Source of the DNA: an uncultured Verrucomicrobiota bacterium
Lineage (GTDB): Bacteria > Verrucomicrobiota > Kiritimatiellia > CAIQIC01 > Lenti-01
DNA: 64,000 nt
Reading direction: 5' to 3'
NCBI GenBank assembly: GCA_964393515.1
Contig: CAYMTY010000012.1
Location: forward strand, 3,473-67,472
Below the pieces are notes generated by a model. That model was not told the origin of the DNA, did not search any database, and saw nothing but the letters and a program-made list of their open reading frames with translations. Positions 11,578 to 44,732 of this stretch are shown in pieces. Each line of letters begins with the position of its first letter. Within the stretch, counting starts at the first letter, position 1. The position numbers were made by a program, and so were the translations under genes.

Positions 11578-11600
11578 GTCCGCCTCCGCTCCTCGCTGCG

Positions 11601-15629: not shown

Positions 15630-15790
15630 GGAAAACTGTTTCGCCGTTTTTCCACGCAATGGAAAATATTTTTCCACACCGTGGAAAAATCGACCGGTTT
15701 TTTCCACATCCCGGAAGACTTTTTGGCGAATTTTCCACACTATGGAAAAATATTTTCCACACCGTGGAAAACTTCCCTTGTCCGCCGTCC
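15628..15790. promoter_or_regulatory. Array of six 19-21 bp palindromic sites TTTTCCAC-N3/4-(R)TGGAAAA, which are DnaA-box-like TTTTCCACA 9-mers on both strands, in a low-GC (about 40%) stretch
   Basis: Direct reading: TTTTCCACACCATGGAAAA / TTTTTCCACGCAATGGAAAATA / TTTTTCCACACCGTGGAAAAAT / TTTTTTCCACATCCCGGAAGACTTTTT / TTTTCCACACTATGGAAAAATA / TTTTCCACACCGTGGAAAAC. Five plus-strand 9-mers match the relaxed DnaA-box consensus TTWTNCACA. The first site contains the start codon of the WP-repeat gene. Confidence 0.5.
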
Positions 15791-33400: not shown

Positions 33401-34495
33401 GGCCGGATCAATGGGCTTGAGGCCCATCCGGATTTCAAAGCCGTCGGCGATCTCATCCGCATCCGTGTCCCAGTGGAAAGGATCGGTACCAGCGAGGAAT
33501 TCATCCCGGAGGCCGGCGCAATCGCCATCCAGATCCTCCGTCGGGTCCACGACCAGCTCAAAGCCGAAGGTGGCCAGCATGGCGGGATTGAGCAGCGGCA
33601 GCGTCGGGATGGCCCAGCTCACGGTGGGATCGAAGGAGGGCACATCGAGCGCCACCCCCTCGAGCAGGAGGGTGACGCCATCATTGAGCAAGCTGCCGTA
33701 GAAATAATACTTCCAGCCGTCGGAGATCCCGTCGCCGGCGGTGCTGAGCAGCGTCGGGTCGGTGCCGGGATCGTCATTGAAACCAGTGAGGGCATTGAAG
33801 CCGTACCAGCCGTCGAAGCCGCGGGCCTGGAACCAGTTGTTGAAGGGAATCGTGCCGATGTAATAGTCGGGCGGCCGCACCCCCGTGACGGGGAAGCGGA
33901 AGGGCCAGTCGGTATTGATCACGGCCGGATAGGCCCCGGACGCGAACTGGTTCATGGTGCCGGGAGTCCACCCGCCCGGCATGGTGTCGCCGGAGGGATT
34001 TCCCGTGCGCCCGTCGTTGCCGGTCGCCTTCTTGTGGTTCAGGCCGTACTTGTATTCCCACTTGTCCGGCAGGCCGTCGAGGTCGACATCGCCCACCCCT
34101 TCCCCGGGATGGTATTCCCGGCTGAAGAGAATGGTGATGTCCTTGTCTTCATCCAGGGTCAGTTGGATGCTGGTCAGGTTGATATGGGGTCCCTCGCCGA
34201 GATGCTCGGGAATGTCCCCGCCCCATTCGCAGACGAAACTATCATAGGGCCCCACCGGGGTCGGCGTCAACGTAATGGTGACGAGATCGCCTTCCACATA
34301 GGGGCCGGCCGGATTGACGACATACGTACCGGTACCCACCCCTTGCAATCCCTGATAGTCGGCCGGCAGCACCGTGATGGCCAGGGATACGGGATCCTGC
34401 GCGACGGCAGGTTGAATCCCCGCCACGACCAGCAGGGCAAGTGCCCCGAGGCAAACCGAAACGACGCTGAAGGGTGTCCGTTTGTTTTTCATCAT
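24464..34495 (-). CDS. Giant (3343 aa) secreted multidomain protein: multiple LamG/concanavalin-A-like lectin domains, a VWA domain with MIDAS, many thrombospondin type-3-like Ca-binding repeats (DxDxDGxxD), and a C-terminal beta-domain
   Basis: Signal peptide MMKNKRTPFSVVSVCLGALALLVVAGIQPAVAQ. LamG-type signatures end in ...VDEVRIWN (at least four occurrences). VWA: MIDVSGSMAAESRMDQAKEAATVAIDSM...ISDGVPNSG. TSP3-like: DTDGDGINDADE, DSDGDGYSDGVE, DPDGDGLTNLNE and many more. Both antisense giant ORFs in the track (24230..27208 + and 27779..34939 +) are GC artefacts. Confidence 0.85.
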   Translation of the reverse strand: MMKNKRTPFSVVSVCLGALALLVVAGIQPAVAQDPVSLAITVLPADYQGLQGVGTGTYVVNPAGPYVEGDLVTITLTPTPVGPYDSFVCEWGGDIPEHLGEGPHINLTSIQLTLDEDKDITILFSREYHPGEGVGDVDLDGLPDKWEYKYGLNHKKATGNDGRTGNPSGDTMPGGWTPGTMNQFASGAYPAVINTDWPFRFPVTGVRPPDYYIGTIPFNNWFQARGFDGWYGFNALTGFNDDPGTDPTLLSTAGDGISDGWKYYFYGSLLNDGVTLLLEGVALDVPSFDPTVSWAIPTLPLLNPAMLATFGFELVVDPTEDLDGDCAGLRDEFLAGTDPFHWDTDADEIADGFEIRMGLKPIDPADGTRNPSGDYMAYYDDGVSEFRHRQVYDELGFDPRTGWGENYLTRGTVRALSGQENTQPFNNREKFLATLYLGFLQGGFSCANFNSFAVNPLSIDTDTDGIFDGWELYVGLNPVNQDDAIVDGDADGLNAFQEFSAYDINLTRGASWPNGRTHFDMAWLNKVWPSDPNVDDTDGDGLIDGGEGGYSDKDLPGGEDAEGSLAVLKYAGGVINWNNSCYIGCGLNPTTADTDRDAIPDHWEARYRSTIYDITDLDGRNGMDGTHKDAPADYDDDGLVNYQEYLSGSVHHWRYTEWIANQPLGSYDPMLFFGGTPFPWDWNSQQNTYDYYYINHVNNRYTATSPRVADTDWDGMDDFWEIYHGLNPMYGTLDIHQSMVLGATVFAGVPPTFDIRLWPFVAGSPFADPDQDGLPNSDESIQANVPAPAYYHTSPSPLWVRDTSYQLSWVNLYYGLGNLLNYWYWGSTIRPPPSYMFSFASSEGFDSDSDMLGDRAELVHTPTSPGSTDPLNVESPPRRRALYLDGDAAARTRGRFLHPAYAMTTFTIETWVRAVNPAKGEMQVILERPMTVPNGNLMGFPEGNRLNFRLALDANGQPYVAYNGLGYDALYVEAKAASAYALQADRWYHLAGVYDGTAKRLYLYIDGEMRASVASAERPANGWFTGNPAFVFSAPIVVGAKENNPDGWVSGTPILVGYYAGTVLTQPDLSNYFEGWVDEVRIWNGAKTSAQIAQERMAKMDLDDVIANRAAVTDTPAAPELMYLYNFNNLMDPLTAGEGVAPAGFELLNGRPNDGSYPNVPWWGTALDRSTVYDNYHYVPWIANIAARFPLDPPPDSPYNQMMVPVQVTNLEITTTSTTNTDGDVVTVTNVATNVTTVIQQQRDFPNSANPYNMGYYHGATEWLENHPDALNQEHLVFTTRDNSLFNDLLPLRDARADAAVELWDGAGAGASMSYDSNRDGIPDWWYLEHGFDPRGASVAEEDPDGDGLSNYWEFRIGSDPHGMYSQDPTGRLTDAEWDSDGDTLANAAEIWTWGTDPDNSDTDDDGRRDDLEVTENTSGIYSRSPQVDRSLVLDGTPVLVPEPQRVLEDDLTPQRFENLAQWHLAAMVKPDAAQTGSLIRRDVEGGGIHFELGLNNNVPFVRFNNPLMATYTASGTDPLPTDRFSAVIAEWSPSNHILRLLVDDCVVAALNVAAPCITGRGATYIGENITGRIDDVFIGRQLLGGGMPSADYVLMIDVSGSMAAESRMDQAKEAATVAIDSMPKGASMAIITFDNEVQMVQEFTADRDTLKTLVDSLVPIGNTSYSAPVSKMIEIISGREAPGGYVGILISDGVPNSGVPTDTDLAQLVTLGAKVNTVGFGSSILAGSTFELERIATGTGGTFFPAPGGSELSQILTAIVTDDAAEDFAFYPFDDGGLLAEDYTQFRNWDYALTGVAFDAATFATAITPFNYSFVDSEEDMPVWWEEWFLAQTEEDEPDDDPDGDGLTNLNEWRISFMNQALGLPSLNPVLADSNGNGTGDGNEDHDGDTLISRDEQAHHGSRVDRRDTDDSGLDDNGELAAATDPAYSMIPYEMKALRFGASGGAGEIVVADRVRGVDTEHLGAEEWTIECFVQPEAVPPLGVDQPLVQRTVRCSNWLNYELGIRNNGSNQIVPYVRFNHFNDANLTELTVNLPLETNQWVHLAGRLSDGSLGLFINGQVVRSQITSYDPAQGPGDTYFGGNGFVGRLKDVRIWKIGRRDVDIQEFSRRNLLFGVAAADSGLLRVVGDQGHLREVAAPNTARDQLQTWTLECWVRTSDDAGAIISRVNTGNVIGETDDFNYALTVGEGGRLVGRFAIQWRETDTDTNGVVTVGDVVVNTSINNLISAKPVNDGKWHHVAYTRDEMNTTLYIDGELSAIQNSLLVPISIGTDYTDLSIRILDGPVEIGRGLAGDIDEVRIWNNALTTEEVRSAMKQNLYGSESGLVSYFNFDFQQGVHAEDRAAVRNPDMEYGTYIPGALHVRTVDQAPLENFYPLRVYALTALVGYYPADDGGATLENLIYQNNWDYAGRLVGDVAFEVLSQQNQPFLSDSDGDGLPDGWETLYGLDPNSERGNDGAYGDPDRDGLTNLAEYLAGTNPTDWDSDGDGFSDYDSNDPLCVGNCLSFGEYFMDGDLIPDAWEIIYADVLSPLVNDAGTDPDGDGWHNLAEYLGTGFDLTVVEGVTNRMAVGPTRPDDPDSYPVPPVTFTFLGDAAATLSAEAPLVVWAYSDLAMRRPDARTVIPLEGLFANGSTCTVTNWDVGHLRQGNNIFMAFIDANGDGKWNAGGTAGEAEWLGFSEGFAQSGVENIQWGSADVRVTLTDKPAGYIRFSWEQDLAKIAAALAQVNSTTYIVSIQQIGGSIIYSAVRDLESMDRPFITEMDFRQAGVAPLYGNYKWAVVGGAPPSDGSIVMTGTNVFASGSNSIWYAASLAAPSILSPTNMTLPHARNRLQLRLSKNAAQVTVQIQRGGTTFLSFTVPAPVVNNAGIAEMDLPWLAGWGTFTNGDYAIRVSALNPRVSSGTASAPFSVNLQPAPVGAGTIRGKIGYFGTNTGVRVVEAFAGAGFDQTPAARVRAAADGSYTLLGLRAGAYHVRGFLDRNSNGMLDVGEPWGFLKGEPSGGIILARKANPKGSTGSQLPYALEFSVKTLALTSQGSVPGQNLLIYNSLAYWKNNVDSDGDGLTDEAELALGTNPMRWDSDFDGLNDRAELEIYGTNPANPDTDGDTLLDGWELTYQACAGLDPRDPADGTADADGDNLSNALEQANGTNPCDADSDDDGLQDDWEVRYRLNPLVPTGDDGPDGDPDGDTLPNAQERDLGTDPRMADTDGDGINDADEVVVRRTNPLMWDSDGDGYSDGVELAAGSDPNNRFDRPPSGITAGTVITRIEKTATGAVVTYNVTEVNPAGNSAVVEFMVNEDLTDGAGWTGVGVQRAVSAATTGLTDTVVDPDADGTLFIRLRSK

Positions 34496-34541
34496 TTGCT
34501 CCTGGCAGAGACGGCCCGACTGGTAAACATGGTCCTACAAA

Positions 34542-35045
34542 TCATGGCTCTTCTTCCAAAACGTCCTGTGTCTCGGCGGCGCCGGCCGGCCGGCTCAACG
34601 CGCGCAATTCATCCAGCAGGGCGGTCTCCTGCTCGCGCAAGGCACGCCACTGCTCATCCGCGCCCACCTGGGCTTCCAACTGCAGGCTTTTCTCCCGCAG
34701 CTTCTGCCGCGATTCTTCTATTTCCCGGACCAAGGCGCGCGCGCCTTCGCCGGCCTCGATTTGCTGGCGGCGCTGGAAGACGTCCCGGCGGACGGCGATC
34801 AACTGCGTGCGCAACTGGTCCAGGCGTTCGGTCCGGGCTTCCGGCGAAAGCGCCGGTGTCTCGGCGGCAACCGCCTCGACTGCCGGTGGCGGGGCCGCGG
34901 GTGGCGCTTCCGGCGGCGGGGCTTCCGCCGGTGCGATAACCGGAACGCAGGCAACGCAAAGCGCGATCAAGCCACAGCGCACGGTTCCCGCCCCGAGGCG
35001 GGTGCGCCGGCAGAGTTCCGGCCGAAAAAACAGCGTAGCGATCAT
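34542..35045 (-). CDS. Small secreted acidic coiled-coil protein (partner 1), 46 bp upstream of the 3343-aa gene
   Basis: From ATG 35045: MIATLFFRPELCRRTRLGAGTVRCGLIALCVACVPVIAPAEA (signal), then a Pro/Ala/Glu linker, a coiled-coil heptads segment (LDQLRTQLIAVRRDVFQRRQQIEAGEGARALVREIEESRQKLREKSLQLEAQ) and an acidic tail. The track start at 35153 is unsupported. Confidence 0.5.
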   Translation of the reverse strand: MIATLFFRPELCRRTRLGAGTVRCGLIALCVACVPVIAPAEAPPPEAPPAAPPPAVEAVAAETPALSPEARTERLDQLRTQLIAVRRDVFQRRQQIEAGEGARALVREIEESRQKLREKSLQLEAQVGADEQWRALREQETALLDELRALSRPAGAAETQDVLEEEP

Positions 35046-35166
35046 CTGTTCAATCCTAGGTCTTGTTGGGTTCCTTGTCAACGGCGGCAAATCGCCGCGC
35101 CGGCCCGCCGCAACCGCGGGAAGCGTCAGAAACCGGCTGCATTTCATTTCCATGATCTCCGCGGGA

Positions 35167-38100
35167 TTAAGGCAGGCGGACCGGGCGGAAGAACAGCCAG
35201 GGGACGTTCACATCGAGGTTGGTAAAGACTTGCAGGCCGGAGGTGGCGACGGCCACTTCCGAACCCGGTATCGTCATCCAGGGGGCCGACACCAGGTTGG
35301 AGGTCACCTGCACGGCATACGTCATGCCGGCCGAGCCCATCCACGTGAAGGTGAAGGGCGCGGCGGGCTGGAGGTTCCGCACGTACAGGGGGGCATCGGT
35401 CGGATCCGCGGGGTCGGTTCCAGCCGCCACCTCCTCGCCGTCGGTGTACCCGTCGCCGTCCGTGTCGGCCACCTGCGGATTCAGGCGCAGGCGGTATTCG
35501 CCGATGTTCAGGAGCAGGTCGCCGTCGTCGTCCTCCATGGCATCCAGCGGATTGGTGGGATCCAGGTCATGGAGCAGTTCGTAGGTGTCGTCGATGCCGT
35601 CGCCGTCGCCGTCCAGGACGGCTTCGAGCTGCAGCAGCCGGTGGTTCCAGGTGTCGGCCACGTAGATTGCCCCCGAGTCGAGGGCGGGCGCGGCGTCGTG
35701 CGGGAACTTGACTTCGCCGTCCCCGCTGCCGTACTGCCCCAGGGCGCCCACCGGAGTGCGGGAGGGATTCAACACCTGGATCCGGTGATTGGAGGTGTCG
35801 GCCACATAGAGGCGGCCGCCCGCCCCGAGCTGCAGATCCATGGGCTTGTTGAACTGCCCCAGGCCGTTTCCGGCCGTGCCCGTCTTCCAGAGGAAGGCCC
35901 CGCCGCCGGAGAAGCCCTGGAGGCGGTCATTGTCCGTGTCGGCCACATAGACGATGCCGTCGGCGTCCACCGCGATGCCCTGCGGGGATTTCAGCTGGCC
36001 GTTCGCGGTGCCGTACGCGCCGAAGGCGAACTGGAAGTTGCCTTCCGGATCGAAGACCTGCACGCGGTGGTTGTCCATGTCGGCCACGAAGAAGCGGCCC
36101 AGCGGATCGATGGCCACGTCGCGGGGGTTCTTGAACTGGCCGTTGGCGCTGCCGTAGGACCCGAATTGGCGTTCGAAGGCGATCTGGCCGGTCCCGGGAT
36201 AGAAGGTGAACACCTGGATGCGGTGATTGGCGGAATCGGCCACGGCGAACCGGTCGGCATTGGGATCCTTCCCGAGGCCGTACGGCGAGGCGAACTGCCC
36301 GGCCCCCGTGCCGTTGGCCCCGTAGTTGCGGACATGGGCGAGCGTGGCGCGGTTCCAGACGGAGATCCGGCTGTTTTCGCGGTCCAGGACGAACACGAAG
36401 GCCTCGGTCAGGAACAGGCGGGTCGGGAACCGGAACTGGCCGGTGGCCGTGCCGTAGTCGCCCACGGCCTGCTGCTGCGTCCAGCCCGCCTCCAGCGGCA
36501 GGATGGGCTGATGGGGATCCATTCCGTTGAGAACGCAATAGCCGTCGGGGATCGAATCCCCGTTGCTGTCCGGCAGGGCCCCGGGCGTTCCCGGATAGCC
36601 CAGCACGCGGTCGACCACCCAGGTGCCGAAATCGTGGGTTTCGCCGGCCGAGAGGTCCAGCGCGTACAGCCCGGAATCCCCGTAGGCGACGGAATCCACG
36701 AACGTCGCGGCGTCCCAGGCGCGGACGTAGACGTTGCGGACCGGGGTCGTGGGCATCAGGTCGTGCTGGAAGTTTTCATCAAAGCGGCCGTGTTCGGGCA
36801 GCCATTCATAGCCCACGCCGATCCGGCCGTGGTTCCGGCCGAACGGGAACGTGAGCAGGATGACATCGTCGCCGGTGGTCTGGCCGTCGGTCCGCGGCGC
36901 ATTGATGGCTCCGTCCGGGCCGGCGTAGACCAGTTGGAAGAGGCTGGCGTCGGGCCCGCCGGTGCCGGACAGGTACTGGCCCATCCAGTTCTGCACGCCG
37001 GTGGTGGACTGCGCGCGCAGGGTCGGCCGGGCCACCTCGAAGCTGACCGCCACGGTCCGCACATCGGCGCCGGGATAGTTCCCACGCACGAGCAGCACGG
37101 CCTGGTGGGTGCCGATCGCAAGGCCGGCGGACTCGGCCCGTACCGTCACCGGCAGCGAGCCGCCGGAGAACCCGGCGGTCTCGGGGGTGACGTGCAGCCA
37201 GGCGACCGGTTCCCGCAGCTCGTTCTCGACCAGGCCCTGCAACACATCCTGCCAGACGCCCCGCTGATTCCATTCCCCGGCATCCAGGTTCCCGTTCCAA
37301 AGAACGACCACGCCGCCCTCGGCAGTGACACGACGCATGATCTTGGAGGCGCCATCCACTTCAAAGAAGGAGGCGACGGTCTCGGCCGCATCGGGCGTGG
37401 CTTCGTCGTAGATCCTGGGCGCAACGGCCACGCGGTCGCCCGGCTGGATGGCGACCCAGTTGGTGTCGATCGGCAGCGCCTGGGCGAGCACGGCCACCGT
37501 CCCCGTGCTGGCCGCGCGGTCCAGCGAGTCGGCGCCGACCAGGCCGCACATGCGCCGGTCATCCGGCCGGGTCAGGACGTTGGCCCCCACTACGATGAGC
37601 TTGCCGCCCCGGGCAAGGAAGGTGTTGAACAGGGTTTCCTCCGCCGCCGACAGCAGGCGGCCGGTTCCGGCGGTTCCGCCGAGGTCCAGGATGACGAGGT
37701 CCTGGGGCAGAACAACTTCTTCGTCGGTGGAATGCAGTCCGGTCTGCACGCCGTCCGCCACGGCCAGGTTGTTCGACCACAGCGCCACCGTCCAGCCCAG
37801 CGCCTGCAGCACCGGCTGCAGCGGAGCCAGGTTGTTCCGGTCGGAGATCAGCCCGATCCGGCGCGGCTGGGAGCTCAGGATCCTGAACTGGAACGAATCC
37901 GCGGCGGGATTGTCGAGCAGCAGTTCCAGCTCCTGGTCCTGCCCGGCCTGGACCGCGAATTCCAGCTGGGTGGCGCCGAAGGCGACCTCCGGCCGGCGGA
38001 GGGAGAAATGAGCCGTCTGATTGCCGCCGGCAATGGTGCACACGGTCGCCGCGGACTTTTCATGGGATTCACCCAGGGCGCGGACGCGGTAGACGCCATC

Positions 38101-41100
38101 CTCCAGGCCGTCCAGCCGGTAGGCCCCGCCGGCATCGGTGAGTACCCGGCCGCCGGCGGCGCCCCAGTACTCCACGGCCAGCCCGCCCAGCCCCGCCGCG
38201 GTCTGCGCATCCCGCACCACCCCCGAAATGGTGTGCCGACGGGCGACCGGCACCGTGAAGGACAGCACCCACGGCCCCCGGGTCGGATGCACCATCGTCA
38301 GCGTGAATTCCGCCGGCCCGGCCGCGGCCGGCATCCGGACCCGGAAAGGCAGCGTGTTGCTCTGCTGCTGCCCGCTGGGAATGCCGGGCCAGGCCGCGGT
38401 GCCCTGCTGGATCACCACGCCGGCCGTGGCGCTGGCGAGAGTGCCAGTCGGATTCGCATAAAGGGCCGAGCCGTCATTGAACAGGCGGATGTACAAATCC
38501 ACGGTTTCGCTCGGCTCGGCGTGGCTGTCGCCGTCACCCGTGCCGTTATCCACCACGCGGACCTCCGTGATCACCGGGAACGGCGCGGCCAGCACGTCGA
38601 CCGTCACCGGGACCATCAGGACGTTGACACCGCCGCGGATGACGATATTGGCGGTATAGGTCCCCGCGGGCAGCTGGCCCGCCGCGTTGATCGCCACCTC
38701 GACGGACAGCCGGTCTCCCGCCGGGATGTTCCCCCGCTCCAGGTCCAGTTGCAGCCAAAAGGCCTGGATCTGCTCCAAGGCCGCTGCGGCGTCCAGGTGG
38801 CCGCCGGAGGCGACCTTCCCGGCCAAGACCGGGTCCCGCCGCGCCCCCAGCATCAGGGCGTCCCGCAGCATCGCCGGCGTGGCCCACGGGGCGATGGATT
38901 TCATCAAGCCGGCCACGCCGGCAACGTGGGGCGCGGCCATCGAAGTGCCGGATATGCTCTTATAGCCGTCCGCCATGGTGAAGACATCCAGATAGGTACT
39001 GAGAATGTCGACGCCGGGGGCGGCAATATCCACGGACTGTTCCCCGTAGTTCGAGAACCACGCCAGCAGCCCGTCGTGGTCCGTGGCGGCCACCGACACG
39101 ATGTTGTCGAGGTTGTACGACGCCGGATAGCTGGGATAGACATCGTTGTTCAGCGTATCGTTGCCGGCCGCCGCGACCACGAGGTGATCCTGGGCCAGCG
39201 CGGCGGCAATGGTTTCATACTCCACTCCGCTGAAATAGCTCCCGCCATAGCTGTGGTTGCTGATCTTGACGCCCTCGGCCACCGCGCGATTCAACGCATC
39301 TATCGCCGCCGCCGCGGAAAGGCTCAAGGTCTCGAGGCCCGTCAGCGGGTCGATCACCACGGTGGCGATTTTCAGCGGCATGAGCTTGGAATTCCAATTC
39401 ACGCCCACCACGCCGATTCGGTTGTCGCCAACGGCGCCGATGGTGCCGGCCACGTGGGTGCCGTGCTCGGCGACGTCGGCAATGGGATCCGGCGTGGGAT
39501 CGGGATCGTCGTCCCCGCAATCGTAGCCCGGCACCAGGTTGGCGGCCAGGTCGACGTGGTCGAGCTTCACGCCGGTGTCCACCACGGCGATGACCGTCCC
39601 GGTGCTGCCGACCGTGATGTCCCATGCCTGCGGCGCGCGGATGTCCGCGCCCAGGGTGCCGCCGGTCTGCCGGGTGTTCTCCAAGCCGTACATCTGCCCG
39701 AAGAACGGGTCCTCCGGCACGGCGAAGGGCTTCCGCCGGTAGTTGGGCTCCACGTAGCGGATGGCGGCATCCGCGGTGAGCGTGTCGGCGATCGCCGGCA
39801 GGGACCGGTTGGCCGGCACCCGGACGAGCGCCGCGGAAACCAGATCGAAGCGACGCAGCACCTGCGCGCCGACCGCGGCCAGGGCGCCGGCCTGGGCCTG
39901 AAGGCCGGCGGCGTCCTCGAACCGGACCAGCAATTCCCCTGGAACGTACGCCTCCGCGGGCAGGGACGCCCAATCGGTTGCGGGCAGCACCACCTCGCCC
40001 ACCCGGTCATGCGGAATCCCGGATACGAGTTCGATCCCGAGCTCGACAAAGCCGTCGAAGACTCCGGCGTTGTCGATTTCCAGCGTCAGGTTGGTCCCCG
40101 TGCCTTCGCGCAGGGTCACCGCGATGGGATCGGGCGCGGCCGTGACATTCCACGGCGCCACGGTGAAGTCCACGTTGGGGACATCGGCGTCCGCCACCGG
40201 CACGATCCGGGCGGGCGGCGCGCCGTACGGCGGCGGCGGCAGGACATAGACTTCATAGGCGCCGTTGACCAGGCCGAACACCTGGTAGTCGCCGGCGGCA
40301 TCCGTCAGGGCCTGGCCCGTGAAATTGCTGCCGACGACCTTGACGACCGCACCCTCCACCGGAGCGGCCGCCATATCCTGCACGTTTCCGGAGATGGCGT
40401 GGCGCACGGTCACGGTCAGGGCGAAGGTCAAGGCGGTCACCCGGGCCTCGACATCGGTAACTTCCAGATCGAACTCAACCACCTCGCCCGCCGCCAAGGC
40501 CGGATCCAGAGTGATCCGCGGATACTCCGCCGGCGGCACGGTCAGGGGATCGACCACCGGGCTGGCCGCGCTGCCGGCCGGCACGCTGATCCAGGACACG
40601 GCGTCCTGGTCGACAGTCGTGGCGGTGCCGCCGCCGTAGCTGACAATGCCCGCCAGCTGCAGCGCATCCTGGCTCCCGGAGTTGCCCAGGAAAATATCGA
40701 TGTCCAGAGACTCGCCGGCCTCCGGATAGGCGTCCCCGTCGCCGCCGATCACGCGTGTGCCCTGGATATAGAGGACCGGGCTGGCCGCCACGGTCAGCGT
40801 CACGGGGATCAGGATGTCCTCGCCGCCGATGTCATTGCTGATCAACCGCAGGATCGCTTCATACGGCTGTTCGGAGGGCGTCAAATCGGCGGCGGCGACG
40901 GCCACTTCGACCGTGGCGCCCGCGCCCGCGGGCACGGCGCCGGCGGCCGGGTCCACGGCCAGCCAAGCCGGGATTTCCGCCATGGCCGGGTGCGGGAGAT
41001 AATCCACCCGGAGATCATAGTCCAGCGGCAGATTGCCGGTGCTGTTGTCCAGCGCGAGGCTCTCCAGCGCCGCGCCGCCCTCGCCCAGTTCCAGGACAAA

Positions 41101-44100
41101 GAGCAGCGGCGCAGGATTGGCGGTGGCCCGTCCCAGGCCGAAGTTGGCGGTGGCCGGGCCCGTCCGGGAAACCGGCGCGCTCGGCGAATATTCGCCGGGT
41201 TTCAACGCCCGGATATCGTACGCCACGCCCGGAACGAGGCCATGCAGGGCATAGGTGCCATCCGCCCCGGAATAGGCCTCGAGCTCCGGATATCCGGGTG
41301 CCTGGCCGCGGATCCAGGCATCCGCGATGGGATTGCCGGTGAACAGGTCCGTCACCACGCCGGTCACGCTTTCCCGCACGGCGATTTCCACCGCCAGCGT
41401 ATCGGGATACGGCCCGAGGCCGCCGTCGGCCTGCGCGCTGTGGAAAACCGTGAACCACGTTCCGCCGGGCACATCCGCAGCAACCGCCAGAGGCAGCTGC
41501 GTCCCGCTGAAGGCGTTGTCCCCGGGATCCAGGTCGCCGTAGAGGACGGTGGCCGGAGTCGGCGTCAACGTCACCCCGGGGGTGGGCACGGTGACCGTGG
41601 CCCGGGCATTCATGAGCGCCTGGGTCTGGGTCGAGTTGTAGACCTCCAAATCCAGGAAGAAGCTTTCGCCCGGTTCCGCATGACCGTCCCCGTCGCCCCC
41701 GGCCAGGTCGTCGATGACATGGCTCACGATGCTGATGCCCGGCGGCAGCACGTGGGAAATCCGGACGTCATCGAGATACCAGCCCGCGGCGGTTTGCTGG
41801 GCGTCGGACTCGATGCGGAACCGCACCCGGATGGCTTGGTTGCTGAAATTGGCCAGTTCCACCGTCACCAGCTGCCATTCTGCGGCGGAGCCCTCCACGA
41901 CGTTCGCCCCAAACGAGGATTGGGCCGTGACATTGACCCAGCCGGCCCCGGCATTGACCTCGATGACGCCGAAATCCCCGGCGCCGAACTGGTGCCACGA
42001 CCAGAATTCCAGGCGCGGGTTGAGTTTCACCTCGACGGACGTGCCTACCACTGCGGCTTTGGCCAGGTGCGGATAGTTGCCGTCCAGAATGGTGCCCCAG
42101 GCCCGCATCCCCGAATGGGCGCCCACCGGGCCGAAGGTCGGAATGCCGTACTCCCAACAGGCCACCCCGTTGAGGTTGGTGATGGTCCATCCGGCCACGC
42201 CGGATTCCATGTCGTTCTCGTAGACCACCCGGCGCAGCGGCGTGATGAACTTCAAGTAGTCGTCTTCCACCGTGGAGGTCAGATCTGCCGGGGCCGAGGC
42301 CTTGTTGCCGGCATAATCCTCGGACAGGACCGCGACAAAGTAGCGGGTTGCGCCTTCGACGGGGATCGACACTTCATGCACGTATTGCGTCACGCCCTCG
42401 ACCACGGTCGGCGTGTCCACATACACGCCCCCGCCCGTCTCCGGCAGCAACGTGGCCAATCCGCCGGCCGGAATTGCCTGGGCCAGAACGTACCGGGAAT
42501 CCGCCGGCTCGTCCGTGGCCCAGGACACCACGGCCGTATCCTCGGTCAGACTGAGCAGCTTTACCCCGCTGATGACCGGCGGTGTGTCGTCGATGGGAGC
42601 CGCCGCCGTCGCGGTCTTGCCGCCCGGACTGGTGTAGGAAATCGTCAGCGTGTCGCCATCCACCGCCATGGTGCCGCTGGCCAACGCCAGCTGGCCGGTA
42701 AAGCTGATGCCTGCGTCATACGGCAGGGTCAACGCATCGCTCCAGCGCAGGACCCCGTCGGGATCCCGGATCTCGCCGTCCGCCGTCACGTCCGCCGGCA
42801 GCGGCGCGGGCAGGGTCGGATCGCTCACGGTGACCTGGACCGTGGCATCCGACTGGTAGGCCGGCCGGTCCAGCGCAACTTGCGGCCCCAGCGCCGCCAC
42901 TGCGGCGTAGAGATCCAGCTCGCCGCCGGTGACCACCTTGCCATCCAGATTCGCATTCGGCGCAACACTCGTCAGGAGCGCGTCCCGGATCACGGTGTAG
43001 GGATAATCCGGATTGAGGCTCCACAGCAGAGCCGCCGCCCCCGCCACGTGCGGGCAGGCCATGGAGGTGCCGCTGTAGGAGTCCAGCGCATCCCCCCCGC
43101 CGCCGGGGACGGTGCTGAGAATGTCCACGCCGGGCGCGGCCAGATCCACGCTTTCCAGGCCGTAATTGGAAAAGTCCGCCAGTTCCCCGGCGGAATCGAT
43201 GGCTGCGACCGCGATCAGGTTGGGCAGGTCATAGCTGGACGGATAATGGGGATAGGCGTCGTTGTCCTCGCCGTCATTGCCCGCCGCCGCAATGAACAGC
43301 TGCCCGTAGACTTCGCCGGCTTTCTTGATGGCGTCGTACAGGCCCTGGCTGTACCCGCCCCCGCCCCAGCTGTTGTTGGTGATCTTGATCTTGAGCGCGG
43401 TGTTGGTGGCCGCATATTCGACGGCCTCGATCGCGTCGGCCGTGCTGCCATAGGGATCCAGGAATTTCAGGGCGATCATCTTGACCTGCCAGTTCACGCC
43501 CGCCACCCCGAGGGCATTGTTGCCGACGGCCCCGATGGTTCCGGACACATGTGTGCCATGGCCGTGGTTGTCCTGCTGGTCCGGGATGTCGTTGGCAAAA
43601 TCGTAGCTGCCCGGCGCGATGTTGGCCTGCAAATCCTGGTGGGCGGTGTAAATGCCCGTGTCAATGATGCCGACCACCATTTCCTGGCTGCCTTGCGTGA
43701 TGTCCCAGGCTTCTGGCGCGCGGATGCGCTCCATGCCCCATAAATCACCGTAATGGGGGTCGTCCGGCACCGTTGCGACCGGGCGCAGGATGTAATTCGG
43801 CTCGACATAGGCCACCGCGGGATCCGCCAGGTACTGCTTGGCGGCCTGGGCCAGGGAGACCTGCCGGGGCAGGCGCACCTGCGCCACGGGGGTGATCCGG
43901 AACTGCCGGACGACTTCGGCGCCAACCTGCCGGTGCAGGGCGGCGACCGTCGCCGGGACGGCTTCCCCCTTGAATCCAACCAGCAGCTCGCCGGCCACAT
44001 ATTGTTCCGTGAAAACCGGCTTGTCCCAGTCGATGCCGGGGTGCGCGGCCCAGCCCGGACCGGCGGCCAGGAAGAACAAGCCGGCGCACAGCAGCCGGAA

Positions 44101-44130
44101 ACTGCGAAACGCGTGATGGTTTTTCGTCAT
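35167..44130 (-). CDS. Giant (2987 aa) secreted protein with two complete tandem (I9 propeptide + S8 subtilisin) units, CarbopepD_reg-like beta-sandwich domains, a six-blade NHL-repeat propeller, TSP3-like repeats and a C-terminal beta-domain
   Basis: Signal peptide MTKNHHAFRSFRLLCAGLFFLAAGPGWA. Triad 1: VGIIDTGI / HGHGTHVSGTIGA / GTSMACPHVAGAAALL. Triad 2: AVVDTGV / EHGTHVAGTIGA / GTSMAAPHVAGVAGLM. NHL repeats include ADSANHRIQVF, ADMDNHRVQVFDPEGNF, ADTDNDRLQGF, ADTSNHRIQVLNP and ADTWNHRLLQLE. The antisense 3089-aa ORF 34474..43743 + is an artefact. Confidence 0.85.
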   Translation of the reverse strand: MTKNHHAFRSFRLLCAGLFFLAAGPGWAAHPGIDWDKPVFTEQYVAGELLVGFKGEAVPATVAALHRQVGAEVVRQFRITPVAQVRLPRQVSLAQAAKQYLADPAVAYVEPNYILRPVATVPDDPHYGDLWGMERIRAPEAWDITQGSQEMVVGIIDTGIYTAHQDLQANIAPGSYDFANDIPDQQDNHGHGTHVSGTIGAVGNNALGVAGVNWQVKMIALKFLDPYGSTADAIEAVEYAATNTALKIKITNNSWGGGGYSQGLYDAIKKAGEVYGQLFIAAAGNDGEDNDAYPHYPSSYDLPNLIAVAAIDSAGELADFSNYGLESVDLAAPGVDILSTVPGGGGDALDSYSGTSMACPHVAGAAALLWSLNPDYPYTVIRDALLTSVAPNANLDGKVVTGGELDLYAAVAALGPQVALDRPAYQSDATVQVTVSDPTLPAPLPADVTADGEIRDPDGVLRWSDALTLPYDAGISFTGQLALASGTMAVDGDTLTISYTSPGGKTATAAAPIDDTPPVISGVKLLSLTEDTAVVSWATDEPADSRYVLAQAIPAGGLATLLPETGGGVYVDTPTVVEGVTQYVHEVSIPVEGATRYFVAVLSEDYAGNKASAPADLTSTVEDDYLKFITPLRRVVYENDMESGVAGWTITNLNGVACWEYGIPTFGPVGAHSGMRAWGTILDGNYPHLAKAAVVGTSVEVKLNPRLEFWSWHQFGAGDFGVIEVNAGAGWVNVTAQSSFGANVVEGSAAEWQLVTVELANFSNQAIRVRFRIESDAQQTAAGWYLDDVRISHVLPPGISIVSHVIDDLAGGDGDGHAEPGESFFLDLEVYNSTQTQALMNARATVTVPTPGVTLTPTPATVLYGDLDPGDNAFSGTQLPLAVAADVPGGTWFTVFHSAQADGGLGPYPDTLAVEIAVRESVTGVVTDLFTGNPIADAWIRGQAPGYPELEAYSGADGTYALHGLVPGVAYDIRALKPGEYSPSAPVSRTGPATANFGLGRATANPAPLLFVLELGEGGAALESLALDNSTGNLPLDYDLRVDYLPHPAMAEIPAWLAVDPAAGAVPAGAGATVEVAVAAADLTPSEQPYEAILRLISNDIGGEDILIPVTLTVAASPVLYIQGTRVIGGDGDAYPEAGESLDIDIFLGNSGSQDALQLAGIVSYGGGTATTVDQDAVSWISVPAGSAASPVVDPLTVPPAEYPRITLDPALAAGEVVEFDLEVTDVEARVTALTFALTVTVRHAISGNVQDMAAAPVEGAVVKVVGSNFTGQALTDAAGDYQVFGLVNGAYEVYVLPPPPYGAPPARIVPVADADVPNVDFTVAPWNVTAAPDPIAVTLREGTGTNLTLEIDNAGVFDGFVELGIELVSGIPHDRVGEVVLPATDWASLPAEAYVPGELLVRFEDAAGLQAQAGALAAVGAQVLRRFDLVSAALVRVPANRSLPAIADTLTADAAIRYVEPNYRRKPFAVPEDPFFGQMYGLENTRQTGGTLGADIRAPQAWDITVGSTGTVIAVVDTGVKLDHVDLAANLVPGYDCGDDDPDPTPDPIADVAEHGTHVAGTIGAVGDNRIGVVGVNWNSKLMPLKIATVVIDPLTGLETLSLSAAAAIDALNRAVAEGVKISNHSYGGSYFSGVEYETIAAALAQDHLVVAAAGNDTLNNDVYPSYPASYNLDNIVSVAATDHDGLLAWFSNYGEQSVDIAAPGVDILSTYLDVFTMADGYKSISGTSMAAPHVAGVAGLMKSIAPWATPAMLRDALMLGARRDPVLAGKVASGGHLDAAAALEQIQAFWLQLDLERGNIPAGDRLSVEVAINAAGQLPAGTYTANIVIRGGVNVLMVPVTVDVLAAPFPVITEVRVVDNGTGDGDSHAEPSETVDLYIRLFNDGSALYANPTGTLASATAGVVIQQGTAAWPGIPSGQQQSNTLPFRVRMPAAAGPAEFTLTMVHPTRGPWVLSFTVPVARRHTISGVVRDAQTAAGLGGLAVEYWGAAGGRVLTDAGGAYRLDGLEDGVYRVRALGESHEKSAATVCTIAGGNQTAHFSLRRPEVAFGATQLEFAVQAGQDQELELLLDNPAADSFQFRILSSQPRRIGLISDRNNLAPLQPVLQALGWTVALWSNNLAVADGVQTGLHSTDEEVVLPQDLVILDLGGTAGTGRLLSAAEETLFNTFLARGGKLIVVGANVLTRPDDRRMCGLVGADSLDRAASTGTVAVLAQALPIDTNWVAIQPGDRVAVAPRIYDEATPDAAETVASFFEVDGASKIMRRVTAEGGVVVLWNGNLDAGEWNQRGVWQDVLQGLVENELREPVAWLHVTPETAGFSGGSLPVTVRAESAGLAIGTHQAVLLVRGNYPGADVRTVAVSFEVARPTLRAQSTTGVQNWMGQYLSGTGGPDASLFQLVYAGPDGAINAPRTDGQTTGDDVILLTFPFGRNHGRIGVGYEWLPEHGRFDENFQHDLMPTTPVRNVYVRAWDAATFVDSVAYGDSGLYALDLSAGETHDFGTWVVDRVLGYPGTPGALPDSNGDSIPDGYCVLNGMDPHQPILPLEAGWTQQQAVGDYGTATGQFRFPTRLFLTEAFVFVLDRENSRISVWNRATLAHVRNYGANGTGAGQFASPYGLGKDPNADRFAVADSANHRIQVFTFYPGTGQIAFERQFGSYGSANGQFKNPRDVAIDPLGRFFVADMDNHRVQVFDPEGNFQFAFGAYGTANGQLKSPQGIAVDADGIVYVADTDNDRLQGFSGGGAFLWKTGTAGNGLGQFNKPMDLQLGAGGRLYVADTSNHRIQVLNPSRTPVGALGQYGSGDGEVKFPHDAAPALDSGAIYVADTWNHRLLQLEAVLDGDGDGIDDTYELLHDLDPTNPLDAMEDDDGDLLLNIGEYRLRLNPQVADTDGDGYTDGEEVAAGTDPADPTDAPLYVRNLQPAAPFTFTWMGSAGMTYAVQVTSNLVSAPWMTIPGSEVAVATSGLQVFTNLDVNVPWLFFRPVRLP

Positions 44131-44732
44131 TGCTCGGAATCCTCCGCTGGCAGGGCTGTACCGGTCTCTTCGGGATCCGGAGCCGCCGCTCCGGACGTGA
44201 AATCATTTCCAGCGGCCACCCCGTCCGGCGGCTGCTCCAGGGCTTGCAGTTCCAGTTGCTTGCGTACCCGGTCATTGGCCAGCGTCATGATTTCCCGCTG
44301 GATTGTCCCAATCCGCCCGCTCACCCCTGCCTGCTGTTCCTGGAATGCCGTATAGCCCGGGTCGGCAGCCAGCTGCTGGGCCAGGGATTCCTGCAGAGCT
44401 TGCAGTTCGCGCTGCGCGGCTTCGATCCGCTGCTCGAGATCCTGCATGACGGCGTTGCTGGCCACGATCTGCCGGTGGATCTCAAACTGGCTGCGGTGCG
44501 TTTCGCGGGCCTGTTCCATCAGGGCGGTTTGCTCCTGCTCCAGGACCGCCAGCCGGCTGTCAATGGCGCTGATTTGCTCCTGGAACTCGCGCGCCGGATC
44601 TGCCGGCATCTCCGCCGGCGCCGGCGTTTCTGGAAGCTCTTCGGCAAAACTGCTTGCGGGTAAAAATAATAGCGGAACCAGGCTGAAAACCAACGACAAG
44701 CCGCAACGCGAAAACATGCCCAACCTCTTCAT
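44127..44732 (-). CDS. Small secreted acidic coiled-coil protein (partner 2). Its stop overlaps the ATG of the 2987-aa gene (ATGA).
   Basis: MKRLGMFSRCGLSLVFSLVPLLFLPASSFAEE (signal), a Pro/Glu linker, then long Gln/Glu-rich coiled coil (RLAVLEQEQTALMEQARETHRSQFEIHRQIVASNAVMQDLEQRIEAAQRELQALQESLAQQLAAD...) and an acidic tail. Same architecture as 34542..35045. Confidence 0.55.
   Translation of the reverse strand: MKRLGMFSRCGLSLVFSLVPLLFLPASSFAEELPETPAPAEMPADPAREFQEQISAIDSRLAVLEQEQTALMEQARETHRSQFEIHRQIVASNAVMQDLEQRIEAAQRELQALQESLAQQLAADPGYTAFQEQQAGVSGRIGTIQREIMTLANDRVRKQLELQALEQPPDGVAAGNDFTSGAAAPDPEETGTALPAEDSEQ

What the first reader, a model, noticed from the sequence alone, without database searches (positions are those of the whole stretch)
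35167..44130. Single 2987-aa polypeptide with two complete propeptide+subtilase units, an NHL beta-propeller and TSP3 repeats
Both S8 domains retain the full Asp/His/Ser triad in canonical contexts (DTG..HGTHV..GTSMA-PHVAG). Each is preceded by its own I9-like propeptide: ELLVGFKGEAV...YVEPNY and ELLVRFEDAAG...YVEPNY. This looks like a tandem duplication of the entire zymogen unit rather than a degenerate second domain.

The C-terminal third carries six NHL repeats (...A(D)xxNHR(I/V)Q(V)F...). This combination is unusual for a protease-plus-propeller on one chain. It may represent a surface-tethered dual-specificity protease.
Basis: seen in the sequence. Interest (0 to 1): 0.6.

Follow-up and report, generated by a model that had tools for sequence, protein, structure and literature searches.

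The report
Giant secreted two-protease polyprotein
This is a real 2,987-residue secreted bacterial protein with two intact subtilisin-type protease units plus binding domains, and it belongs to a conserved but unstudied family of giant multi-protease proteins in Kiritimatiellae/Lentisphaerae-type bacteria, which is noteworthy but not unprecedented.

Summary
Window 35167-44130 (-) is one uninterrupted 2,987-aa gene. It encodes a signal peptide and two prodomain+S8 units, both with the catalytic Asp/His/Ser and the oxyanion-hole Asn. It also has a MAM-like domain, three CARDB-like+CarboxypepD_reg modules, a conserved 525-aa region with no family match, a six-bladed NHL propeller, TSP3 repeats and an unassigned C-terminal domain.

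It is not an assembly fusion. The identical ORF occurs in two independent run-level assemblies, and about 50 full-length homologues (36-72% identity) keep the same layout.

It is not a recent tandem duplication. The two S8 domains are 46-49% identical and fall into two separate clades (NJ bootstrap 86/98). Slot 1 groups with single-S8-NHL proteins. Slot 2 is the constant one. In relatives, slot 1 is replaced by a C25, M4, M36 or C14 protease.

Multi-S8 chains, including triple-S8 proteins, are common among the database hits.

The gene is always followed by a giant LamG/TSP3 adhesin-like gene.

Most likely it is an exported zymogen polyprotein. Cleavage at the internal prodomain would split it into two active proteases for extracellular proteolysis alongside the adhesin partner. 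Tethering to the surface and dual specificity are unproven.

It is an undescribed variant of a known kind and of moderate interest.

The parts
44047..44130 (-). Sec-type signal peptide, residues 1-28 (MTKNHHAFRSFRLLCAGLFFLAAGPGWA|A)
   Evidence: Read from the sequence: basic n-region, hydrophobic core, G-W-A before the predicted cut. The Cys is not in a lipobox context. Inferred; no predictor was run.
43795..44010 (-). Prodomain 1 (Fervidolysin_NPro-like), residues 41-112, ending in YVEPN
   Evidence: Pfam PF22148, 58.7 bits, E 7e-16.
42856..43773 (-). Subtilase domain 1 (S8-1), residues 120-425. Catalytic D157 (43660-43662), H191 (43558-43560), oxyanion N285 (43276-43278), S356 (43063-43065).
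   Evidence: PF00082 189 bits. Best PDB match is deseasin MCP-01 3VV3, E 4e-74. Residue positions. D/H/N/S are invariant in all 54 slot-1 domains of the family.
41746..42213 (-). MAM-like / choice-of-anchor-J-like beta-sandwich, residues ~640-795. It follows an Fn3/Ig-like stretch (~430-630).
   Evidence: Weak hits only: NCBIfam choice_anch_J E 0.0018; Reelin_subrepeat-B and InhA-like_MAM, E 1e-3 to 8e-3.
41140..41370 (-). CarboxypepD_reg domain 1 (residues 921-997), preceded by a CARDB-like module with DGDGHAEPGE at residue 813
   Evidence: PF13620 30.3 bits. Motif. Internal repeat 804-1001 matches 1858-2046 at 30% identity.
40159..40395 (-). CarboxypepD_reg domain 2 (residues 1246-1324), preceded by a CARDB-like module (DGDAYPEAGE at residue 1131)
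   Evidence: PF13620 39.3 bits. Internal repeat 1049-1297 matches 1784-2019 at 33% identity.
39742..39972 (-). Internal prodomain 2 (Fervidolysin_NPro-like), residues 1387-1463, ending in YVEPN
   Evidence: PF22148 36 bits, E 9e-9. The AF2 model packs it against S8-2 as in solved zymogens.
38725..39723 (-). Subtilase domain 2 (S8-2), residues 1470-1802. Catalytic D1518 (39577-39579), H1556 (39463-39465), oxyanion N1657 (39160-39162), S1730 (38941-38943).
   Evidence: PF00082 180 bits. 3VV3 E 1e-52. D/H/N/S kept in 81 of 82 slot-2 domains, variants included.
37999..38232 (-). CarboxypepD_reg domain 3 (residues 1967-2044), preceded by a CARDB-like module (DGDSHAEPSE at residue 1866)
   Evidence: PF13620 33.9 bits. 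Motif.
36421..37995 (-). Family-specific middle region, residues 2046-2570: Ig-like, then alpha/beta domain (~2091-2305), then Ig-like, then beta-sandwich 'M2' (~2380-2525)
   Evidence: No Pfam or PDB sequence match. AF2 pLDDT 89. Conserved in all family members and protease-swap variants. The M2 half is also found in ~1700-aa single-S8-NHL proteins.
35617..36408 (-). Six-bladed NHL beta-propeller, residues ~2575-2838
   Evidence: PF01436 137.8 bits with 5 significant stretches. Six blade cores.
35401..35613 (-). Three bacterial TSP3-type Asp-rich calcium-binding repeats, residues 2840-2910
   Evidence: PF18884 42.8 bits. Motifs at 2840, 2867, 2889.
35170..35400 (-). Unassigned ~77-residue C-terminal domain ending ...PWLFFRPVRLP
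   Evidence: No family hit at E<=0.1. Family consensus W..G..Y..E...L....W .... FFR..R. The LamG giant has the same terminal layout: last TSP3 repeat, AAGxDP, then a ~80-aa domain.
44127..44732 (-). Upstream small gene (201 aa; signal peptide plus coiled coil). Its stop overlaps the protease start by 4 nt.
   Evidence: Homologue in the same position in L001, L004-L007 and L018 at 31-41% identity.
34542..35045 (-). Downstream small gene (about 167 aa from M37; signal-peptide-like segment plus coiled coil)
   Evidence: Called as 167 aa in L034/L035. A ~200-aa gene sits in this position in L001 and L003.
24464..34495 (-). Conserved partner gene: 3,343-aa LamG x3-4 / VWA / TSP3-repeat giant (17 TSP3-like motifs)
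   Evidence: Pfam. NCBIfam TSP3 resemblance to MtsD and CglD, below cut-off. A homologue lies downstream on the same strand in all 22 distinct loci that hold >=3 kb of downstream DNA.
23389..24348 (-). Downstream 319-aa predicted lipoprotein (LAGC lipobox); possible last gene of the cluster
   Evidence: Weak homologues in the same position in L009 and L016 at 29-30% identity.

Best explanation
The gene encodes an exported zymogen polyprotein of a PVC-group bacterium (Kiritimatiellae-like).

Shown:
- It is one real gene.
- It has an N-terminal signal peptide.
- It has two complete prodomain+S8 units, each with an intact Asp/His/Ser triad and oxyanion Asn.
- The two units are ancient paralogues. 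Each is kept as an orthologous 'slot' across a family of roughly 3,000-aa proteins.
- Slot 2 and everything C-terminal to it (CARDB/CarboxypepD_reg, the 525-aa middle region, NHL propeller, TSP3 repeats, terminal domain) form a constant scaffold.
- Slot 1 is exchangeable: S8 here; C25, M4, M36 or C14 in relatives.
- The gene is always paired with a giant LamG/TSP3 adhesin-like gene downstream.

Inferred:
- After Sec export, each prodomain folds its own catalytic domain and is cut off autocatalytically. The cuts would fall near ...YVEPNYILRPVA|TVPDDP (about residue 119) and ...YVEPNYRRKPFA|VPEDP (about residue 1469).
- The second cut is internal, so it would split the chain into two fragments. 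The N-terminal fragment carries S8-1 with its MAM/CARDB/CarboxypepD_reg domains and still carries prodomain 2. The C-terminal fragment carries S8-2 with the propeller, TSP3 repeats and terminal domain.
- The two fragments would stay together through the prodomain-2/S8-2 complex until that prodomain is degraded.
- The likely role is extracellular breakdown of insoluble or matrix (glyco)proteins. The non-catalytic domains and the LamG/VWA/TSP3 partner would provide calcium-dependent binding to substrate or cell surface.
For: Gene reality:
- (ORF, codon-position GC).
- Identical ORF in two independent run assemblies.
- Contiguous full-length homologues.

Two active units:
- Pfam.
- PDB alignments.
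- Alignment to BPN'.
- D/H/N/S conserved in 205 of 206 S8 domains from the 120 hits.

Zymogen geometry of unit 2:
- AF2 pLDDT 87, pTM 0.88, with a low-confidence linker at residues 1472-1490.
- The model superimposes as one unit on unautoprocessed pro-subtilisin E 3WHI (TMt 0.85-0.87, ~398 columns).
- It also matches pro-Tk-subtilisin (TMt ~0.75, ~440 columns) and fervidolysin 1R6V (TMq 0.73, 443 columns).

Ancient paralogy:
- 46-49% identity between the units, against 54-86% (slot 1) and 45-83% (slot 2) to the same slot in homologues.
- Two clades in the NJ tree.
- Bootstrap 86 for slot 1 plus single-S8-NHL, and 98 for slot 2 plus variant S8.

Slot swapping:
- Precomputed Pfam lists.
- Confirmed for P0032 (FTP+M4 at 147-629, pro+S8 at 1604-2000) and P0106 (C14 at 37-243, S8 at 2050-2340).
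- Confirmed for P0060 (C25 then S8).

Conserved partner.

Degradative lean: the closest solved enzyme for both domains is deseasin MCP-01. From my own knowledge, this is a collagen-degrading enzyme.
Against: - Nothing here is experimental.
- Autoprocessing and the internal cut are inferred from homology to subtilisin zymogens and from an AF2 model.
- No recognised cell-surface anchor or dedicated secretion signal was found beyond the signal peptide, so localisation is unknown.
- The strict pairing with the LamG giant could mean a narrower role, such as processing that partner.
- The conserved 525-aa middle region has no assigned function.
- One homologue (P0054) has lost His and Ser in slot 2, so slot-2 catalysis is not indispensable everywhere.
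- The trees are NJ on 294 columns, not ML.
Confidence: 0.6

Rival explanations
1. It is a dedicated maturation or remodelling protease for the co-encoded LamG/VWA/TSP3 giant, or for a surface structure built from it, rather than a nutrient-acquiring protease. The constant S8-2 scaffold would process the partner.
For: - A LamG-giant homologue is downstream on the same strand in all 22 distinct loci with enough sequence, including next to single-S8-NHL relatives.
- Both proteins share the same terminal TSP3+domain layout.
- Small secreted coiled-coil genes flank the protease.
Against: - Slot 1 is exchanged among four other catalytic classes. That fits broad degradative capacity better than one fixed cleavage.
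- Some partner giants carry their own M10 or S8 domains.
- The closest solved relative is a degradative enzyme.
Confidence: 0.2
2. The chain is not cut internally. Prodomain 2 would stay as a covalently linked chaperone/inhibitor, so the protein acts as one tethered chain, possibly with S8-2 latent until triggered.
For: - In some subtilases the prodomain remains bound after processing (CspB; general knowledge).
- The AF2 model shows a tightly packed prodomain 2.
Against: - Intact triad and oxyanion Asn in slot 2 in 81 of 82 family sequences.
- Zymogen-like geometry with a disordered linker after the prodomain's last strand.
- Both point to standard autoprocessing.
Confidence: 0.15
3. One of the two subtilase domains is a non-catalytic pseudoprotease, as CspA is in CspBA.
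For: One family member (P0054, slot 2) has Tyr and Thr in place of His and Ser.
Against: In the window protein both domains keep D/H/N/S in canonical motifs, aligned with BPN' D32/H64/N155/S221. So do 205 of 206 related domains.
Confidence: 0.03
4. It is a recent tandem duplication of one zymogen unit.
For: Both units have the same prodomain+S8 layout, YVEPNY ends, and a following CARDB/CarboxypepD_reg module.
Against: - Only 46-49% identity between the units.
- Each is closer to its orthologous slot in distant homologues.
- Separate clades with bootstrap 86 and 98.
Confidence: 0.02
5. It is an assembly or sequencing artefact that fused two adjacent genes.
For: None found.
Against: - The identical 2,987-aa ORF is in assemblies of two different runs.
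- About 50 homologues from unrelated metagenomes are collinear across the junction.
- Coding-type GC3 runs throughout.
Confidence: 0.01

Closest known systems
Deseasin MCP-01 (PDB 3VV3), S8 collagenolytic protease of Pseudoalteromonas sp. SM9913
   Same: Best solved match for both catalytic domains (E 4e-74 and 1e-52 by sequence; Foldseek E 1e-30, 37% identity for S8-2). It shares the QTGGT N-terminal insertion seen in slot 2.
   Different: Deseasin is a single-protease enzyme of a few hundred residues. It has no second protease, NHL propeller, TSP3 repeats or middle region. Collagen degradation was not tested here.
Fervidolysin (1R6V), pro-subtilisin E (3WHI) and pro-Tk-subtilisin (2Z2Z, 2E1P) zymogens
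   Same: The prodomain family (PF22148) matches, and the predicted prodomain-2/S8-2 packing superimposes as a unit (TM 0.68-0.87).
   Different: In those enzymes the prodomain is N-terminal. Here the second one is internal, about 1,390 residues into the chain, so cutting it would split a polyprotein.
CspBA of Clostridioides difficile (tandem subtilase fusion; NCBIfam NF040809)
   Same: Two subtilase-fold domains on one precursor chain that is later separated (general knowledge).
   Different: CspA is a pseudoprotease and the system acts in spore germination. NF040809 scores 38.6 bits against a cut-off of 1250. Here both domains are catalytically complete and the context is secretion.
Gingipain polyproteins RgpA/Kgp of Porphyromonas gingivalis (C25 plus adhesin domains)
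   Same: A large exported precursor combining protease and binding domains, processed into associated pieces (general knowledge). Relatives of the window protein carry a C25 domain in slot 1.
   Different: Gingipains have one catalytic domain and a T9SS C-terminal signal. No T9SS domain was detected here.
Single-S8-NHL proteins of ~1,650-2,050 aa (P0080, P0087, P0089-P0102, P0108) in the same bacterial groups
   Same: Prodomain+S8 of the slot-1 clade, the M2 beta-sandwich, the NHL propeller, and a LamG giant downstream.
   Different: They lack slot 2 and the N-terminal half of the middle region.
Triple-S8 giants (P0076-P0088, P0105-P0120; Sumerlaeota, cyanobacterial and other sources)
   Same: Several complete S8 units on one chain, with triads largely intact.
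   Different: Different accessory domains (Fn3, PKD and others), no NHL or middle region. Their S8 domains form separate clades.

Membership tests
Peptidase S8 (subtilase), applied to both domains | PF00082 match above the gathering score | tested here: met
   189.1 and 179.7 bits against a cut-off of 21.8.
Peptidase S8 (subtilase), applied to both domains | Asp-His-Ser triad in that order, plus the oxyanion-hole Asn, in canonical motifs | tested here: met
   D157/H191/N285/S356 and D1518/H1556/N1657/S1730 align with BPN' D32/H64/N155/S221.
Peptidase S8 (subtilase), applied to both domains | Proteolytic activity | not testable with these tools
   Needs expression and assay.
Subtilase zymogen with an intramolecular-chaperone prodomain | A recognisable prodomain directly N-terminal to each catalytic domain | tested here: met
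   PF22148 Fervidolysin_NPro-like, 58.7 and 36 bits against a cut-off of 21.
Subtilase zymogen with an intramolecular-chaperone prodomain | The prodomain packs on the catalytic domain as in solved zymogens | tested here: met
   Unit 2 only, and on a predicted model: TMt 0.85-0.87 to 3WHI, TMq 0.73 to 1R6V.
Subtilase zymogen with an intramolecular-chaperone prodomain | Autocatalytic cleavage at the prodomain/mature junction | not testable with these tools
   Sites near residues 119 and 1469 are inferred from the alignment.
   No I9 hit at E<=0.01 on the whole protein or at E<=1 on the segments. The prodomains match PF22148 instead.
NHL-repeat six-bladed beta-propeller | Repeated PF01436 matches that make up six blades | tested here: met
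   137.8 bits with 5 significant stretches. Six blade cores, the first degenerate.
Bacterial TSP3 repeat (PF18884) | Match above the gathering score and DxDxDG-type motifs | tested here: met
   42.8 bits against a cut-off of 25. Three motifs, only one of them significant by HMM.
CspBA-type tandem subtilase | NF040809 above cut-off, with a degenerate second or third domain | tested here: not met
   38.6 bits against 1250. Both triads are intact.
Mycosin (T7SS subtilase, TIGR03921) | Score above the cut-off | tested here: not met
   273.8 bits summed over two domains against a cut-off of 278.75. No ESX-related genes were seen among the window genes scanned.
Known cell-surface sorting signals (T9SS CTD, PEP-CTERM, LPXTG, lipobox) | A recognisable C-terminal sorting domain or an N-terminal lipobox | tested here: not met
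   No such family in Pfam or NCBIfam hits. The N-terminus lacks an L-[AS]-[GA]-C context.
The ~3,000-aa 'two-slot protease / middle region / NHL' family defined here | Collinear full-length homology including the 525-aa middle region | tested here: met
   36-72% identity at 96-100% coverage to P0002-P0047. The middle region is present in all.
The ~3,000-aa 'two-slot protease / middle region / NHL' family defined here | A LamG/TSP3 giant gene immediately downstream | tested here: met
   Window 24464-34495, and 22 of 22 informative loci.

The most novel reading that the evidence does not exclude
The family is a modular protease-delivery scaffold specific to Kiritimatiellae/Lentisphaerae-type bacteria.
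- A constant C-terminal part (S8-2, middle region, NHL propeller, TSP3, terminal domain) docks, through calcium-dependent TSP3/terminal-domain contacts, onto the co-encoded LamG/VWA/TSP3 giant at the cell surface.
- Autoprocessing at the internal prodomain then releases an exchangeable N-terminal 'warhead' protease (S8, C25, M4, M36 or C14).
- Together these would form a previously undescribed multi-protein extracellular proteolytic/adhesive apparatus.
Probability: 0.2. Interest if true: 0.65.

Novelty: new variant of a known kind. Interest (0 to 1): 0.42.

Why it matters
Kiritimatiellae and Lentisphaerae are largely uncultured degraders of complex marine and gut polymers, and how they attack the protein part of such material is unknown. 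This family shows a repeatable design:
- two protease slots on one exported chain;
- an internal zymogen prodomain that should split the chain;
- a first slot that evolution has refilled with five different catalytic classes;
- an obligatory giant adhesin-like partner gene.

If the proposed processing is right, it would be a clear bacterial example of a self-cleaving protease polyprotein. It would also be a source of paired proteases for biotechnology. As a plain annotation, though, it is an 'S8 family serine peptidase' of a kind already present, unstudied, in the databases.

Tried and rejected
- **Self-BLAST of the whole protein** gave no off-diagonal output. Segment-against-segment BLAST worked.
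- **Foldseek of the 525-aa middle-region model against the PDB** gave only low-TM Ig/PapD-like matches.
- **A profile of the middle region against PDB sequences** found nothing.
- **Pfam on 12 members of the middle region** gave only single weak DUF4159/DUF4350 hits. These hint at a glutamine-amidotransferase-like fold and nothing more.
- **Five literature searches** found no description of this family or of tandem active subtilase polyproteins in these phyla. The one paper opened was irrelevant.
- **Rfam** found nothing in the window.
- **An ARAGORN tRNA-Leu inside the ORF** is treated as a false positive.
- **Search for class-specific substrate-pocket residues** that would support 'dual specificity' found only four class-specific conserved positions, none at known S1/S4 determinants.
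- **Rejected readings:** assembly fusion, pseudoprotease and recent duplication (see rival explanations).
Full report
**1. Observation**

The window is high-GC (about 0.63-0.73). ORF 35167..44130 on the minus strand starts with ATG and encodes 2,987 aa. Its codon-position GC (0.69/0.48/0.86) matches the other real genes of the window. The 3,089-aa ORF on the opposite strand does not pass this test and is a shadow ORF.

Pfam and NCBIfam scans of the whole protein and of ten segments give this map:

| Residues | Feature |
|---|---|
| 1-28 | signal peptide |
| 41-112 | Fervidolysin_NPro-like prodomain |
| 120-425 | Peptidase_S8 |
| ~430-630 | Fn3/Ig-like stretch |
| ~640-795 | weak MAM / choice-of-anchor-J-like domain |
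| 921-997 | CarboxypepD_reg (after a CARDB-like module) |
| 1246-1324 | CarboxypepD_reg (after a CARDB-like module) |
| 1387-1463 | second prodomain |
| 1470-1802 | second Peptidase_S8 |
| 1967-2044 | third CarboxypepD_reg (after a CARDB-like module) |
| 2046-2570 | 525 residues with no family match |
| ~2575-2838 | six NHL blades |
| 2840-2910 | three TSP3-like motifs |
| 2911-2987 | 77-residue terminal domain with no match |

Window coordinates were checked.

**2. Are both proteases intact?**

The catalytic residues are D157/H191/S356 with oxyanion N285, and D1518/H1556/S1730 with oxyanion N1657. They align with the catalytic residues of deseasin MCP-01 and pro-subtilisin E.

I extracted 206 full-length S8 domains from the 120 best database hits. 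The four columns are D/H/N/S in 205 of them. The single exception is slot 2 of P0054, which reads D-Y-N-T. So both sites are under purifying selection across the family.

An AF2 model of residues 1380-1810 (pLDDT 87, pTM 0.88) has a confident prodomain, a low-confidence linker at 1472-1490 and a confident catalytic domain. It superimposes as one unit on:
- unautoprocessed pro-subtilisin E (3WHI, TMt 0.85-0.87 over ~398 columns);
- pro-Tk-subtilisin (TMt ~0.75 over ~440 columns);
- fervidolysin (1R6V, TMq 0.73 over 443 columns).

The second unit therefore looks like a complete zymogen, not a relic.

**3. Artefact?**

The identical 2,987-aa product is called on contigs assembled independently from two sequencing runs, SRR8925744 and SRR8925725. 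Nineteen proteins of 60-72% identity, and about thirty more of 36-45%, cover 96-100% of the query at nearly the same length. A fusion by misassembly is excluded for practical purposes.

**4. Duplication or fusion, and when?**

- Unit 1 (residues 73-422) and unit 2 (residues 1424-1799) are 45.6% identical by BLAST, and 49% over 294 trimmed columns.
- Slot 1 of the window protein is 54-86% identical to slot 1 of its dual-S8 homologues, apart from three outliers at 47-52% (P0034, P0035, P0038).
- It is 55-62% identical to the S8 of ~1,700-aa single-S8-NHL proteins.
- Slot 2 is 45-83% identical to slot 2 of its homologues.
- In an NJ tree, all 54 slot-1 domains plus 15 single-S8-NHL domains form one clade. 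All 54 slot-2 domains plus the 28 S8 domains of the 'variant' proteins form another.
- On a 65-sequence subsample these two splits have 86% and 98% bootstrap support.

The paralogy therefore predates the spread of the family. The tree fits fusion or insertion of a second module into a single-S8-NHL ancestor at least as well as a simple tandem duplication. These are NJ trees only, so this is an inference.

**5. The family**

In relatives that keep slot 2, the middle region and the NHL propeller, slot 1 holds a different protease:
- Peptidase_C25 in 22 of the listed hits;
- M36 in 2;
- C14 in 2;
- M4 with its FTP propeptide in 1.

I confirmed positions for P0032 (FTP at 147-196, M4 at 322-629, prodomain at 1604-1676, S8 at 1723-2000) and P0106 (C14 at 37-243, S8 at 2050-2340), and the domain order for P0060.

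The middle region is present in all of these. Its second half also precedes the propeller in the single-S8-NHL proteins. A profile of the middle region against 1.84 billion representatives finds 137 proteins at E<=1e-30. About 55 of them span the whole region, and most of those are 3,000-4,200 aa.

A scan of one genome per species found 30 loci. All are MAGs, labelled Kiritimatiellae/-ia, Verrucomicrobiota, Lentisphaerales, Victivallales, 'Spartobacteria' or PVC group, plus one each labelled simply 'bacterium', 'uncultured bacterium', Neomarinimicrobiota and, weakly, Margulisiibacteriota. None is a cultured isolate.

Several of the top 120 hits outside this family carry two or three complete S8 units. 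Multi-subtilase chains as such are not rare.

**6. Genomic context**

The surrounding window is housekeeping: uvrA, exbB, hisD, hisC, cdaA/ybbR, panD, an MlaE/ABC pair, an M16 peptidase and others.

The local cluster, all on the minus strand, is:
- a 201-aa secreted coiled-coil gene whose stop overlaps the protease start by 4 nt;
- the protease;
- a ~167-aa coiled-coil gene;
- a 3,343-aa LamG x3-4 / VWA / TSP3 giant;
- a 319-aa lipoprotein.

The same order, including the hisD-hisC flank, occurs around a 68%-identical homologue. More distant loci keep protease, small gene and LamG giant. Some of those giants carry M10 or S8 domains.

By tblastn, a homologue of the LamG giant lies downstream on the same strand in all 22 distinct loci that hold at least 3 kb beyond the protease gene. 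This includes loci of single-S8-NHL relatives.

The protease and the giant end the same way: a last TSP3 repeat (58% identical over 33 residues), then AAGxDP, then a ~75-85-residue domain.

**7. Mechanism**

*Shown:* an exported protein (signal peptide read from the sequence) with two catalytically complete zymogen units, a constant C-terminal scaffold and a conserved adhesin-like partner.

*Inferred from established subtilisin biology:* each prodomain acts as an intramolecular chaperone and is removed autocatalytically. By alignment with the mature N-terminus of BPN', the cuts fall near residue 119 and near residue 1469. The second cut is internal and would divide the chain into two protease-bearing fragments. 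Prodomain 2 would hold them together non-covalently until it is degraded.

*Function:* both domains are closest to deseasin MCP-01, which is a degradative, collagen-cleaving enzyme (my knowledge of it, not tested here). The exchange of slot 1 among five catalytic classes also fits degradative versatility. I therefore favour extracellular degradation of insoluble or matrix proteins. The MAM/CARDB/CarboxypepD_reg/NHL/TSP3 domains and the LamG/VWA/TSP3 partner would supply binding.

*Main rival:* a dedicated role in processing or assembling the partner giant.

*Open points:*
- No LPXTG, PEP-CTERM, T9SS or lipoprotein signal was found, so 'surface-tethered' remains a guess resting on an unassigned terminal domain.
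- 'Dual specificity' is also open. Only four positions are conserved differently between the slots.
- The differences are mostly insertions in slot 2: an N-terminal QTGGT segment, also present in deseasin, and a 9-residue insertion in the loop equivalent to BPN' 97-104.

**8. The unknown middle region**

AF2 with a 25-sequence alignment gives a confident model (pLDDT 89) with four parts: Ig-like, alpha/beta domain, Ig-like, beta-sandwich. Foldseek against the PDB returned only low-TM Ig-type matches. Sequence profiles found nothing in the PDB. Pfam gave only isolated weak DUF4159/DUF4350 hits. Its role is unexplained.

**9. Comparison and novelty**

Each domain is a bona fide member of its family (S8, Fervidolysin_NPro-like, NHL, TSP3_bac, CarboxypepD_reg). 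The protein is not a CspBA (38.6 bits against a cut-off of 1250). It is not a mycosin: the score is just under the cut-off only because two domains are summed, and the context is wrong.

Five literature searches found no description of this family. Source annotations say only 'S8 family serine peptidase', 'subtilisin family serine protease', those names combined with others such as 'sugar lactone lactonase YvrE', or 'hypothetical protein'.

I rate it a new variant of a known kind: a secreted multidomain subtilase built as a two-slot zymogen polyprotein with a conserved partner. It is of moderate interest because the pieces are ordinary and multi-S8 chains are common. The internal prodomain, the slot swapping and the obligatory partner are nonetheless undescribed and testable.

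Noticed in passing
window 24464-34495 (-): A 3,343-aa neighbour with 3-4 LamG (ConA-like) domains, a VWA domain and 17 TSP3-like DxDxDG motifs. The layout resembles thrombospondin or CglD/MtsD. It is conserved downstream of every informative homologue of the protease.
   Followed up: partly
window 44127-44732 (-) and 34542-35045 (-): Two small secreted coiled-coil proteins (~200 and ~167 aa) flank the protease gene. The upstream one overlaps the protease start by 4 nt. No family was assigned. They are conserved only among closer relatives.
   Followed up: partly
P0054 residues 1464-1792 (protein named as Lentisphaerae; homologue, not in the window): The only one of 206 S8 domains with a broken catalytic site (D-Y-N-T). 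This is a slot-2 pseudoprotease within an otherwise intact family.
   Followed up: no
P0032, P0036/P0064, P0106/P0115 and 22 C25-bearing hits (homologues): Slot 1 of the same scaffold is occupied by M4, M36, C14 or C25 proteases instead of S8. Some partner giants carry M10 or S8 domains.
   Followed up: partly
P0076-P0088 and P0105-P0120 (database hits): Chains with three complete S8 units, about 2,900-5,100 aa, with source names including Sumerlaeota and Okeania. They have different accessory domains.
   Followed up: no
window 36498-36571 (+): ARAGORN calls a tRNA-Leu(GAG) antisense inside the protease ORF. Rfam found no tRNA at gathering score, so this is probably a false positive in GC-rich coding sequence.
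   Followed up: partly
window 34474-43743 (+): A 3,089-aa open frame lies antisense to the protease gene. Another (27779-34939, +, 2,386 aa) lies antisense to the LamG giant. Both are shadow ORFs typical of high-GC DNA, and neither passed the codon-position GC filter.
   Followed up: yes
window 36421-37995 (-): The alpha/beta domain of the middle region (profile positions ~46-242) also occurs on its own in unrelated architectures of 950-2,250 aa: P0200, P0202, P0204, P0227, P0232. Its function is unknown.
   Followed up: no
window 11221-12606 (-) and 14980-15762 (-): Two ORFs next to an MlaE/ABC-ATPase pair have no Pfam match and lower GC3 than the neighbouring genes.
   Followed up: no
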